This document shows, one piece after another, positions 22,174 to 24,822 of a DNA stretch of 64,000 bases. Both the position numbers and the translations under genes were made by a program. Position 1 is the first letter of the stretch. Each line of letters opens with the position of its first letter. The DNA comes from an uncultured Alphaproteobacteria bacterium (GTDB lineage: Bacteria; Pseudomonadota; Alphaproteobacteria; JAGOMX01). The notes below the pieces were generated by a model. That model saw nothing but the letters and a program-made list of their open reading frames with translations. It searched no databases and had not been told where the DNA came from. The DNA lies in the NCBI GenBank assembly GCA_963780985.1, contig CAWAEF010000015.1:6839-70838 (forward strand). The letters run 5' to 3'.

Positions 22174-23139
22174 TTAAAATATGCCGCCTATAAGATCGTC
22201 ATCGTCGTATTTATCCGCCGTTGATTTGGCAACGATATCCATTGGTTCGGCAAAGCCTTCATCGTCTTCCTCATCCTCGGCAGGGGCTTTGGCACGCTTC
22301 TTGGCTGAGGGTCTTGCCATTGGTATGTTGTCGTTGGCAGGAATTTCTTTAAGTTGGCTTCCGCGTAGATGGGCATATACCTTGGCCAGCAGATCAGAGT
22401 CTATCAGAGCTCCGTGGCCGTCTTTGCGACTATCTCTGTTTACACCAAAGAAGTCACACAAGGCATCTAGTTTAAAGCCACTGATATCCTGGCCCTTATG
22501 AAGAACTTGTTTAGCCAGGGCATAGGTACATTCCCAAGTGGCCTGGTAATCTAAGAAACGAGGATTGCCATCTTGATGCCTGTAAAGACCGGTTTCAACC
22601 AGATCCCGTGCCAGGTTCAAATAGCCTGTGATTAGACTTAAGAGTGCACGGTCGCTTTTGTTGTAAAAAACGGAGCTTCCCTTAGAAACCCTTTCCCAGT
22701 TAAAGATCTTGTTCCAATCTATTTCGAGGAATGTGAACTTTTTGATGATTGATACGGCTCGAATTTGCTTGTCAAATGTCGCCTTGCGCTTTTTTTCACT
22801 TTCGGTAAAATTGTCGTTGCTTGATATATCGACGTTTTCAAACTTGTTCCAGCCAATATTCTGTGTCTCTCTTTGATTTCTACCCTGGATTTTCAACATT
22901 TTATTATAGATTTCTAACAAGGCGCTATTCACGGCCTTGGCGTAACCTTTTACATTGGGTTTGCCCATGCTTTCAGGGGTAGGTATGAAAGGTACATCAA
23001 AATGCCCGGTGGTTTCATTGAACAACCCACCCTCCAATAACAGTTTGCTCTCGTAAATATAAAGCCAGATGGCCGTCGAAATCCTGCTTTGAAGCATGTA
23101 CAGTCTTTTTTCTTTGAGACTGGGCATCTCGTTAATCAA
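22174..23139 (-). CDS. DEDDh exonuclease, C-terminal part (Exo III motif) with a ~190-aa unknown insert and an acidic tail
   Basis: HGALIDSDLLAKVY is the Exo III H-x4-D motif. The frame is open upstream to 23238 and overlaps the end of ORF 23207..23863. Confidence 0.6.
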   Translation of the reverse strand: MINEMPSLKEKRLYMLQSRISTAIWLYIYESKLLLEGGLFNETTGHFDVPFIPTPESMGKPNVKGYAKAVNSALLEIYNKMLKIQGRNQRETQNIGWNKFENVDISSNDNFTESEKKRKATFDKQIRAVSIIKKFTFLEIDWNKIFNWERVSKGSSVFYNKSDRALLSLITGYLNLARDLVETGLYRHQDGNPRFLDYQATWECTYALAKQVLHKGQDISGFKLDALCDFFGVNRDSRKDGHGALIDSDLLAKVYAHLRGSQLKEIPANDNIPMARPSAKKRAKAPAEDEEDDEGFAEPMDIVAKSTADKYDDDDLIGGIF

Positions 23140-23206
23140 GGCGAGCTGTGTGGTTAAGAATGCTTTATTCTTGGGATGTATCTGACTTGCGGGGGATAAC
23201 AGCCCT

Positions 23207-23863
23207 TCAAACTTCTTCCCTTTTAAGAGCGTTAATAATTACGGCGCGTTCAAATTCGGCTTTCATATACCGATAGTCAAAGGGCGCGTTGTGGGCGACG
23301 ATTTTATCAGCCCTCATCAAAATCCCTGAGATTTCTTTGGCCACGTCTTCAAAGCGAGGGCATTGTCTGGTCACGCTGCGGCTTATATGGTGGGCCTTGA
23401 AAGCACCCACGTTGCTGTCCTTGTCAGGGTTGAAGATTGCTTCCCAACGTAGTTCTTCTACCCCGTTAACCATCATTAGTATACCCAAAGACACGGCCCG
23501 GCCTCCTATACGAGCAGAAAACGAAGTGGTCTCATAGTCTATAAAGGCAACAGCCTTATCTCTAAAGTCATCGGTCATATGAACTACTTGCAGTTTGTAA
23601 TCCGATTTTACGTGGTGACTAGGTTGTGCTTGAGGCGCAGTGACGGCTGAGGCGGCTGGTTTTTCTCGCTGGCGCTTAGCGGATGCTTTTGGGAACGTTG
23701 ATGGTCTGCTATTTGCAATAGGTTTTGTGCTACTGATAAGGTCATCTAAAGGGTCATACCCTTCTTCATCCTGTGGTTTGGAAGCAGCTTTGCTCTTGTT
23801 GCCTTTCGGGGTGTCAGTGCCCTCATAAGGGTCGCCGTCATTGATAAAGCTGTCGCCTTCCAA
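23207..23863 (-). CDS. DEDDh (DnaQ-like) exonuclease, N-terminal part (Exo I and II motifs) behind a disordered extension
   Basis: FIDYETT (Exo I) and VAHNAPFDYRYM (Exo II). The called start is TTG. The frame is open upstream to 24142. There is an internal ATG at 23578. Confidence 0.6.
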   Translation of the reverse strand: MEGDSFINDGDPYEGTDTPKGNKSKAASKPQDEEGYDPLDDLISSTKPIANSRPSTFPKASAKRQREKPAASAVTAPQAQPSHHVKSDYKLQVVHMTDDFRDKAVAFIDYETTSFSARIGGRAVSLGILMMVNGVEELRWEAIFNPDKDSNVGAFKAHHISRSVTRQCPRFEDVAKEISGILMRADKIVAHNAPFDYRYMKAEFERAVIINALKREEV

Positions 23864-24093
23864 ATCTTCATATTCATCAAGTTGTTGATTAGCAGATGGT
23901 TTGCTTTTTCCAGCAGGTTGTGTGCTAGCGATCAGGTCATCTAGCGGGTCATACTCTTCATCATCTTCATTCTGTGGTCTGGACGCAGCTTTGCTAAATT
24001 TGCTTTTTAGGGACGTTGCTTTTGGGGTGACAAAATTATCAAAGGGGTCGTCTTCATAATTAGTATATGGGTTCTCATCGTCATCGATGTCTT

Positions 24094-24822
24094 CTACCTC
24101 TTCAGCAAAGCCGACATACTTTGACTTTGACGGCTTGGAGCCTTACCTAGCCGTGCGTTATCGTTGGCTGAGCCCTTAGAGCTAGCCCAGGAGTCAAATC
24201 CTATGTCATCCGGCTGTTTCTTGAGTGAGCTTTTAGGTGGTAAATTACCAGCAGGCTTGCCTGCCGTATTTTGGCGTGCGGCATTGGCTGCTATGCCCGC
24301 ATAAGTGCCCACGCGAGCGGCGTTTCGTTCTTGTATAATGGTGCTAAGTTGCTTCATAGAAGACTTGCGTGCCGGTACTGCGCCAGAGGATACGGGGGCT
24401 TGGTTTGATTTCTTTATTGCGTCAGGCCCTTTCTTAAAGGAAGAAATGCCGTTTTCCGCTTTTACAAAGGTCTTTTGGTTTCTAATGGGAGCGGTTGGTT
24501 TTCTGTTGGTGTTGGCTTCCTCAGCGGAATCACCTGCAAAGTTGTTGCGGCCGAAACCAAAATCGTCGACATCGTAAGACCGTTGCTTATTTCCTCCGTT
24601 GCCAGTTCTATTTCGAGCGGTATCTTGGTCGTCTTCCTCTGGCTGGGAACCATAAAAGTCGCTGGGGCCGTACTGGTCATATGGTACAGCCGCAGGGGTA
24701 TCATCCGAGAAGCCGCCCCAGAAGCCTTCGGTTGGCCTGTTGCTTGCGTTTGATGGCGCGTGGACAGCTAAGAAAGTGAGTATGAAAGATAGGGTTGCTA
24801 GAATTTTGATGCGATTTGACAC
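24094..24822 (-). CDS. Secreted low-complexity (disordered) protein, possibly the detached 5-prime part of the exonuclease gene
   Basis: Signal peptide MSNRIKILATLSFILTFLAVHAPSNA. The rest is rich in G/N/D/S/K. The 3-prime end overlaps an open downstream frame. Confidence 0.5.
   Translation of the reverse strand: MSNRIKILATLSFILTFLAVHAPSNASNRPTEGFWGGFSDDTPAAVPYDQYGPSDFYGSQPEEDDQDTARNRTGNGGNKQRSYDVDDFGFGRNNFAGDSAEEANTNRKPTAPIRNQKTFVKAENGISSFKKGPDAIKKSNQAPVSSGAVPARKSSMKQLSTIIQERNAARVGTYAGIAANAARQNTAGKPAGNLPPKSSLKKQPDDIGFDSWASSKGSANDNARLGKAPSRQSQSMSALLKR

What the first reader, a model, noticed from the sequence alone, without database searches (positions are those of the whole stretch)
22174..24142. 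The DEDDh exonuclease is split across overlapping frames, with a ~190-aa insertion between Exo II and Exo III
Exo I (FIDYETT) and Exo II (HNAPFD) lie in ORF 23207..23863. Exo III (HGALIDSDLLAKVY) lies in ORF 22174..23139, in a different frame. The downstream frame is already open from 23238, so the two overlap over 23207-23238. A +1 slip, or a 1-nt indel, at the run CTTAAAAGGGAAG (minus strand, about 23214-23226) would fuse them. Upstream, the Exo I frame stays open without any ATG/GTG/TTG from 24142 down to the called TTG at 23863. That open stretch overlaps the end of the signal-peptide ORF 24094..24822. The first and third ORFs share one frame and the middle segment is shifted. The alternatives are: (a) one large gene disrupted by two frameshifts, i.e. 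a pseudogene or homopolymer sequencing errors; (b) programmed recoding; or (c) three genes, with a standalone exonuclease core starting at ATG 23578. The large insert between Exo II and Exo III has no family I recognise.
Basis: seen in the sequence. Interest (0 to 1): 0.6.

Follow-up and report, generated by a model that had tools for sequence, protein, structure and literature searches.

The report
Exonuclease gene split by assembly errors
The three overlapping reading frames are one 882-codon gene for an exported DnaQ-type exonuclease, broken in this assembly by two single-base length differences that are most likely assembly errors, because other assemblies of the same bacterium carry the gene whole and this assembly also breaks indispensable genes in the same way.

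Summary
On the minus strand, three ORFs (24822..24094, 23863..23207, 23139..22174) lie in frames 0, 1 and 0, and the DEDDh motifs are divided between the second and third.

They are one gene:
- A congener has a single 686-aa ORF.
- Six further homologues (683-882 aa) are single ORFs.
- A 99.55%-identical contig from another metagenome (L021) encodes an uninterrupted 882-aa protein. Two more records of the same species agree.

Over 15,957 aligned bases the window differs from L021 by 70 substitutions and two 1-nt indels. Both indels lie in this gene: an A-run one base shorter at 24143-24144 and a G-run one base longer at 23218-23220.

This assembly carries such indels widely. 19 of 164 orthologue comparisons show frame changes, including its only leuS, canonical dnaQ, coaE, lpxC and rpoN. 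On another contig it has 27 indels against three independent assemblies that agree with each other.

Best reading: assembly error, about 0.8. A real strain-specific double frameshift is about 0.17. Programmed recoding and three separate genes are effectively refuted.

The insert is real and conserved, about 225 aa, all-helical, with no Pfam or PDB match. The family is rare and is always followed by a signal-peptide Lon paralog.

Other windows of this genome were flagged earlier for the same artefact.

The parts
22174..24822 (-). The whole gene as it stands in this assembly. It is one exported DEDDh exonuclease gene (882 codons in intact copies), read here in three frame segments.
   Evidence: The near-identical contig L021 encodes a single 882-aa ORF over the same DNA. 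The congener has a single 686-aa ORF.
24745..24819 (-). Sec-type signal peptide (SNRIKILATLSFILTFLAVHAPSNA). It is followed by a long, poorly conserved region rich in charged residues that looks disordered, running to about 23600.
   Evidence: Read from the translation. An N-terminal hydrophobic signal-like segment is present in 6 of 7 full-length homologues. No signal-peptide predictor was available.
24143..24144 (-). First break: an A-run one base shorter than in the intact copy. It moves reading from frame 0 to frame 1, and frame 0 then stops at 24096-24094.
   Evidence: Pairwise DNA alignment with L021.
23207..24142 (-). Middle frame segment: the rest of the disordered region, including two copies of the YDPLDDLI unit (23921-23956 and 23726-23761), then Exo I (23525-23545) and Exo II (23276-23293).
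   Evidence: Pfam RNase_T scores 44.3 bits against a cut-off of 24.
23218..23220 (-). Second break: a G-run one base longer than in the intact copy. It returns reading to frame 0, and the middle frame stops at the TGA at 23209-23207.
   Evidence: Pairwise DNA alignment with L021.
22465..23214 (-). Conserved all-helical insertion domain of about 225-250 aa between Exo II and Exo III.
   Evidence: The family alignment shows many invariant residues here. The AlphaFold model is helical in this stretch. There is no Pfam family and no PDB fold match (low-confidence model).
22174..22416 (-). Exo III motif (HGALIDSD, 22393-22416), an acidic tail, and an invariant C-terminal LIGGxF (22177-22200, then the stop).
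19627..22095 (-). Downstream partner gene: a Lon paralog (AAA+, lid and S16 protease domains) behind its own signal peptide and disordered region.
   Evidence: Pfam. The same exonuclease-then-Lon order is seen in five genomic contexts.

Best explanation
The three ORFs are one gene. Its product is an exported DnaQ-type (DEDDh) 3'-5' exonuclease with this layout: signal peptide, long disordered region, exonuclease core interrupted by a conserved helical insertion of about 225 aa, acidic tail, and C-terminal LIGGxF.

In this assembly the reading frame is broken by two single-base run-length differences: one base fewer in an A-run at 24143-24144 and one base more in a G-run at 23218-23220. These are most likely consensus errors of this metagenome-assembled genome, not features of the living bacterium. 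The organism most likely makes the single 882-aa protein seen in other assemblies of the same species.

Shown: the single-gene status, the exact positions of the two differences, and the widespread gene-breaking indels in this assembly. Inferred: that these two particular indels are errors, since the reads could not be inspected.
For: 1. Same genus: G001 has one 686-aa ORF spanning signal peptide, Exo I/II, insert and Exo III, followed by Lon as in the window.

2. Seven full-length homologues of 683-882 aa are all single ORFs with invariant catalytic residues (P0006 D429, E431, D516, H803, D808).

3. Same species:
- L021 (ENA ERZ27248494) is 99.55% identical over 15,957 bp and encodes an intact 882-aa protein.
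- The only two indels in that alignment are the two frame breaks.
- Two more 882-aa records exist (JGI/IMG and GEM).
- The split fragments occur only on the window's own contig.

4. The assembly is indel-ridden:
- 19 of 164 orthologue comparisons with G001 show frame changes, 29 shifts in about 62,000 aa.
- Going by their sequences (my reading), the affected genes include leuS, holA, canonical dnaQ, coaE, lpxC and rpoN.
- leuS has no other copy in the assembly and is fragmented.

5. On contig C13 the assembly has 27 indel events in 18.5 kb relative to L042. Where they overlap, L043 and L044, two further independent assemblies, show the same indels. Several kilobases outside the two indel patches have no substitutions at all.

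6. When each segment is read in its proper frame the gene shows no other damage. There are no in-frame stops, and substitutions against L021 are 13 synonymous to 6 non-synonymous.

7. An assembly of 31 contigs scoring only 73.9% completeness fits marker genes being broken.
Against:
- Both indels fall in one dispensable-looking accessory gene, while the other roughly 13 kb of the L021 alignment has none. A real pseudogene would also look like this.
- Indel density here (2 per 19 substitutions) is lower than in the clearly bad patches on C13 (about 1 per 3).
- The substitutions between the two indels are mostly synonymous. This stretch is therefore a genuine divergent allele, and that strain could truly carry the frameshifts.
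- The sequencing technology of the assembly is unknown.
Confidence: 0.8

Rival explanations
1. The two frameshifts are real in this strain. It would be a recent, strain-specific inactivation of an accessory exonuclease gene (a young pseudogene), with the second indel arising after the first.
For: Both indels of the 16-kb alignment lie in this one non-essential-looking gene. The family is patchy, being absent from another congener and from the other family members searched, which is typical of dispensable genes. The stretch between the indels is a distinct allele with mostly synonymous differences, so it comes from real DNA of a slightly different strain.
Against: There is no further decay: no stops in the proper frames, no truncation, and substitutions 13 synonymous to 6 non-synonymous. 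The same assembly shows identical-looking 1-nt indels in leuS, coaE, lpxC and dnaQ, which cannot all be real, so the base rate of true indels among this assembly's indels is low. Three other records of the species are intact.
Confidence: 0.17
2. Programmed recoding: a -1 shift near 24143 and a +1 shift at the GTT-TGA near 23209 would yield the full-length protein.
For: The second site ends in a stop codon preceded by a purine-rich AAGGGAAG stretch, which loosely recalls the prfB +1 site. A +1 slip there would give a product differing from the intact protein by only about 3 residues (read from the sequence).
Against: No relative needs a shift at either site. Seven homologues and three same-species records are continuous ORFs. 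The near-identical strain differs by exactly one base at each site. There is no X-XXY-YYZ slippery heptamer at the first site. The assembly has dozens of similar breaks in unrelated genes.
Confidence: 0.02
3. Three independent genes: a secreted disordered protein, a standalone exonuclease core, and a helical protein.
For: Each segment has some possible start codon (TTG 23863 or ATG 23578; TTG 23139 or ATG 23127).
Against: The catalytic motifs would be divided between two polypeptides, with Exo III only in the third. There are 279 nt of open, conserved coding sequence upstream of TTG 23863 with no start codon. No recognisable Shine-Dalgarno sequence precedes the internal starts. No relative shows this arrangement.
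Confidence: 0.01

Closest known systems
Gene-fragmenting single-base indel errors in error-prone (typically long-read or mixed-strain) assemblies and MAGs
   Same: The differences are 1-nt run-length changes. They are regionally clustered, more often deletions than insertions (19 to 8 on C13), and they hit indispensable genes. They are absent from independent assemblies of the same organism, and completeness is low despite few contigs. Collapsed mixed alleles giving apparent frameshifts are described in PMC8445201 (abstract only).
   Different: The technology behind this assembly is unknown and the reads were not seen. Here the indels accompany patches of real strain variation, which points to consensus problems in strain-variable regions rather than uniform homopolymer error.
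DNA polymerase III epsilon subunit, DnaQ (E. coli; PDB 5fku_D, 1j53_A, 2gui_A)
   Same: This is the best sequence match among solved structures. It aligns in two stretches covering Exo I/II (epsilon 10-112) and Exo III (epsilon 144-200), E = 3.5e-14. All five DEDDh catalytic residues are conserved.
   Different: It has a signal peptide and a disordered N-terminal region of several hundred residues. A helical insert of about 225 aa replaces epsilon residues 113-143. It has an acidic tail ending in LIGGxF. The genome has a separate canonical dnaQ on C17. It is therefore not the proofreading subunit.
Other DnaQ-fold exonuclease domains (S. aureus DinG N-terminal exonuclease 8zef_A, T. maritima PolC exonuclease 2p1j, ExoX 4fzx, TREX1)
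   Same: These are the only fold matches of the AlphaFold model, and they cover the exonuclease core.
   Different: The matches are weak (whole-model TM-scores about 0.2). None of them covers the insertion domain.
prfB-type +1 programmed frameshift
   Same: There is a stop codon in the zero frame at the shift site, with a purine-rich stretch upstream.
   Different: The shift is not conserved in any relative, and a 99.55%-identical strain has a continuous frame.

Membership tests
DEDDh / DnaQ-like 3'-5' exonuclease (Pfam PF00929 RNase_T) | Pfam model score above the curated cut-off | tested here: met
   Window middle segment scores 44.3 bits and the intact P0006 scores 48.5 bits, against a cut-off of 24.
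DEDDh / DnaQ-like 3'-5' exonuclease (Pfam PF00929 RNase_T) | Exo I D-x-E, Exo II D, and Exo III H-x4-D all present | tested here: met
   D429, E431, D516, H803 and D808 of P0006 are invariant in 7 homologues. The window has FIDYETT, HNAPFD and HGALIDSD.
DEDDh / DnaQ-like 3'-5' exonuclease (Pfam PF00929 RNase_T) | DnaQ-like fold | tested here: met
   The AlphaFold model has mean pLDDT 77.5. The fold-search matches it did return are DnaQ-fold exonuclease domains, but they are weak.
DEDDh / DnaQ-like 3'-5' exonuclease (Pfam PF00929 RNase_T) | Metal-dependent 3'-5' exonuclease activity | not testable with these tools
   Needs a biochemical assay.
Pol III epsilon proofreading subunit (DnaQ proper) | Compact cytoplasmic protein of about 240 aa that is the genome's replicative proofreader | tested here: not met
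   It has a signal peptide, is 882 aa long and carries an insert of about 225 aa. A separate canonical dnaQ lies at G000:C17:118193-118850.
Programmed ribosomal frameshift gene | The frameshift is conserved in orthologues | tested here: not met
   All 7 homologues and 3 same-species records are continuous ORFs.
Programmed ribosomal frameshift gene | Slippery sequence at the shift sites | tested here: not met
   There is no X-XXY-YYZ heptamer at 24143. GTT-TGA at 23209 offers no cognate re-pairing (read).
Assembly indel artefact | Independent assemblies of the same organism lack the indels | tested here: met
   L021 is 99.55% identical with the gene intact. P0017 and P0018 are also intact.
Assembly indel artefact | The same assembly carries like indels in indispensable single-copy genes | tested here: met
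   leuS is the only copy and is fragmented. coaE, lpxC, dnaQ and holA are also frameshifted; gene names are my reading of the sequences. There are 27 indels against three agreeing assemblies on C13.
Assembly indel artefact | Raw reads disagree with the consensus at the two sites | not testable with these tools
Decaying pseudogene | Further damage: stops in the proper frames, truncation, or relaxed substitution pattern | tested here: not met
   There are no stops within each segment's proper frame. Substitutions are 13 synonymous to 6 non-synonymous codons against L021.

The most novel reading that the evidence does not exclude
The intact gene and the Lon paralog that always follows it may be a two-gene cassette of Sec-exported enzymes with disordered regions, confined to a small clade of uncultured Alphaproteobacteria. 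The exonuclease has a helical insertion domain with no detectable relatives, clusters of basic residues that resemble nuclear localisation signals, and an invariant C-terminal LIGGxF that resembles a clamp- or PCNA-binding peptide. It could be a nuclease delivered to a eukaryotic (probably protist) host's DNA rather than a housekeeping enzyme. None of this depends on the frameshifts, which would still be artefacts.
Probability: 0.1. Interest if true: 0.6.

Novelty: not a real feature. Interest (0 to 1): 0.15.

Why it matters
The split, which is the core of the finding, most likely says nothing about biology. It warns that this assembly fragments genes, so apparent pseudogenes, recoding sites and "split" enzymes anywhere in this genome need read-level confirmation before they are interpreted. 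For example, they should not be taken as evidence of genome reduction or host dependence.

The useful residue is the gene itself. It belongs to a rare, uncharacterised family of exported DnaQ-type exonucleases with a large novel insertion, always paired with an exported Lon paralog. That pairing would be a reasonable target for ordinary biochemical characterisation.

Tried and rejected
- **Metagenome pattern scan.** An exact-pattern scan of JGI metagenome contigs with 24 nt next to the second site found nothing.
- **More sister-strain contigs.**
  - Look-up of the JGI 882-aa record (P0017) found no contig.
  - Look-ups for the frameshift-dense C17 region failed, with LptB and with a 154-aa neighbour.
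  - Only the RecA look-up worked.
- **Fold of the insert.**
  - The whole-domain model matched only exonuclease cores.
  - The insert-only model had low confidence (pLDDT 61.5) and no PDB match better than E = 1.2.
  - Pfam found nothing for the insert.
- **Shared sorting tag.** I asked whether the C-terminal LIGGxF is shared by other proteins of the genome. It is unique to this protein.
- **First census impression, reversed.** The first 59-gene census suggested frameshifts hit only poorly conserved genes, which would favour real pseudogenes. The larger census found them in well-conserved and essential genes too.
- **Phase variation.** Rejected because the runs are only 2-3 bases long.
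Full report
**1. Observation**

On the minus strand there are three ORFs:
- 24822..24094, 242 aa, a signal peptide followed by a disordered region.
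- 23863..23207, 218 aa. Its frame is open from 24142 with no start codon before 23863.
- 23139..22174, 321 aa. Its frame is open from 23238.

Exo I (FIDYETT, 23525-23545) and Exo II (HNAPFD, 23276-23293) lie in the second ORF. Exo III (HGALIDSD, 22393-22416) lies in the third. ORFs 1 and 3 share a frame and the middle one is shifted. Read in the frame of ORF 1, the middle stretch has 19 stops. Pfam recognises RNase_T in the middle segment only (44.3 bits, cut-off 24).

**2. It is one gene**

- A genome of the same genus (G001, titled "MAG: Alphaproteobacteria bacterium isolate JTS-AC329") has a single 686-aa ORF. It runs from signal peptide through Exo I/II, the insert and Exo III to a C-terminal LIGGFF, and is followed by a Lon gene as in the window.
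- A search of 5.8 billion proteins found seven full-length homologues of 683-882 aa, all single ORFs. All five catalytic residues are invariant, and so are many residues of the insert.
- One of these, P0006 (882 aa), is almost identical to the window's three segments joined in order.
- Its contig (L021, ENA ERZ27248494, a k141 short-read-style assembly) aligns to window 18866-34822 at 99.55% identity. There are 70 substitutions and exactly two indels.
- Both indels lie in this gene, at the two frame changes. The window's A-run at 24143-24144 is one base shorter and its G-run at 23218-23220 is one base longer.
- Two further 882-aa records (JGI/IMG and GEM) belong to the same 90% cluster. The 242-aa and 218-aa fragments occur only on the window's own 97,125-bp contig.

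**3. Error or real mutation?**

I therefore asked how this assembly (G000: 2.0 Mb, 31 contigs, 73.9% completeness) behaves elsewhere.

*Census against the congener.* I took ORFs of at least 150 aa from 372 kb of G001 and compared them with G000 by tblastn.
- Of 164 orthologue-like matches, 19 change frame, with 29 shifts in about 62,000 aa.
- The shifts cluster regionally: C13:1.4-7.5 kb, C19:1.3-7.9 kb, C17:118-124 kb and C17:152-154 kb.
- By their sequences (my reading), the affected genes include leucyl-tRNA synthetase, a holA-like gene, the canonical dnaQ, coaE, lpxC, rpoN, a CCA-adding enzyme, a TolC-like protein and a secretin.
- leuS has no second copy, and the one at C13 is in pieces with internal stops.

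*Comparison with independent assemblies.* A RecA look-up returned three independent contigs of the same species for the C13 region: L042 (ENA), L043 (JGI 3300014838) and L044 (Logan SRR6960546).
- Against L042, G000 has 27 indel events in 18.5 kb. Twenty lie in 3.4-7.6 kb and seven in 14.6-15.6 kb.
- L043 and L044 show the same indels wherever they overlap.
- Several kilobases in between have no substitution at all.
- In the indel patches, substitutions are about 19 synonymous to 28 non-synonymous. In indel-free variable tracts they are strongly synonymous: AlaRS 30:7, UvrB 17:0, Lon 9:1.

*Inference.* A living cell cannot carry a shattered sole leuS. Three assemblies agree against G000. G000 therefore contains patches of faulty consensus, often where strains differ. 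The two indels in the exonuclease gene are the same kind of event, a run length off by one. Two indels in 16 kb is close to the roughly two to three expected from the genome-wide rate of about one per 6.4 kb of coding sequence.

*Supporting detail.* The gene shows no other damage. Each segment is stop-free in its proper frame, and substitutions are 13 synonymous to 6 non-synonymous.

*Odds.* I put assembly error at about 0.8.

*What remains for a real frameshift (about 0.17).*
- Both indels sit in one dispensable-looking gene.
- Indel density here is lower than in the obvious bad patches.
- The 19 substitutions between 23258 and 23712 are mostly silent, so that stretch is a genuine variant allele whose owner could truly be frameshifted.

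*Earlier notes.* Other windows of the same genome list further 1-nt breaks (glnA, acnA, upp, spoT). One follow-up reached the same verdict from different loci. I treat this as agreement, not as evidence.

**4. Recoding and three-gene readings**

Programmed frameshifting requires the shift to be conserved. Here no relative has it, and the nearest strain differs by one base at each site. The first site has no slippery heptamer. The second (GTT-TGA after a purine-rich stretch) only superficially recalls prfB.

Three separate genes would divide the catalytic motifs between two polypeptides. It would also leave 279 nt of conserved coding sequence without a start codon.

**5. What the gene is**

*Exonuclease core.* The closest solved relative by sequence is E. 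coli Pol III epsilon. It matches in two stretches, residues 10-112 and 144-200 (E = 3.5e-14). About 258 profile positions replace epsilon residues 113-143. An AlphaFold model of the core plus insert (pLDDT 77.5, pTM 0.74) shows the exonuclease fold with an all-helical insertion. Fold search finds only DnaQ-fold exonucleases, and those matches are weak.

*Insert.* It has no Pfam family. Modelled alone at low confidence, it has no PDB match.

*Not the proofreading subunit.* It has a signal peptide and a long disordered region, and the genome has a separate canonical dnaQ.

*Rarity.*
- In 1.84 billion representative proteins only about five clusters carry this insert, one of them a fragment from this window. 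Scores then drop to those of generic DnaQ-like proteins.
- Among 185,579 species genomes the scan confirmed only G001. The window's own genome is left out of that scan.
- More distant insert-bearing relatives exist, P0022 and P0027. hhalign against P0027 gives 98.8% probability, though most of that alignment's support is in the exonuclease core.

*Neighbour.* In all five contexts examined the gene is followed, within about 65-80 bp, by a Lon paralog that also begins with a signal peptide and a disordered, basic-cluster-rich region. The other flanking genes differ between contexts.

*C-terminus.* LIGGxF is invariant in the family and unique in this genome.

*Most likely function (inferred, not shown).* An exported 3'-5' exonuclease working outside the cytoplasm together with, or under the control of, the exported Lon paralog. 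A host-directed role is possible but untested.

**6. Verdict**

The split is very probably an artefact of this assembly and is of low interest. The insertion and the family are real and uncharacterised, but only modestly novel: a variant of a well-known fold.

Noticed in passing
window 19627-22095 (minus strand), with L004, L045, L046, L047: The exonuclease gene is always followed by a Lon paralog (AAA+, lid and S16 domains) that starts with a signal peptide and a disordered region containing KKRK-type basic clusters. Other flanking genes differ between contexts, so this looks like a conserved two-gene cassette.
   Followed up: partly
G000:C13:1400-7600 and 14600-15600 (outside the window): These are patches with 20 and 7 indels relative to three independent assemblies of the same species. 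They break leuS, a holA-like gene, a secretin and a chemoreceptor. Kilobases in between are identical to the other assemblies.
   Followed up: yes
G000:C17:118193-124024 (outside the window): Canonical dnaQ, coaE, rpoN (3 shifts) and a kpsF-like gene all change frame within 6 kb. I could not obtain a sister-strain contig here to confirm that these are errors.
   Followed up: partly
window 27937-28847 and 29316-29996: These are tracts of dense, mostly synonymous substitutions against the 99.55%-identical strain, in uvrB (17 synonymous, 0 non-synonymous) and a FadL-like gene (6 to 4), with no indels. The flanks are nearly substitution-free. They look like recombination or strain-mosaic tracts.
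   Followed up: partly
window 23726-23761 and 23921-23956 (minus strand): The acidic motif YDPLDDLI occurs twice within a duplicated unit of the disordered region. The second copy lies in the start-less open stretch, which itself shows that stretch is coding.
   Followed up: no
window 22177-22200 (minus strand): The C-terminal [DE]LIGG[ILVF]F-COOH, preceded by an acidic run, is invariant in all seven homologues and unique in this genome. It resembles short clamp- or PCNA-binding peptides, but this was not tested.
   Followed up: partly
P0022, P0027 (database proteins, not in the window): These are more distant DnaQ-like proteins with a helical insert between Exo II and Exo III in the same position. 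P0027 also has a long serine/lysine-rich N-terminal region and no signal peptide. A wider insert-bearing group may exist.
   Followed up: partly
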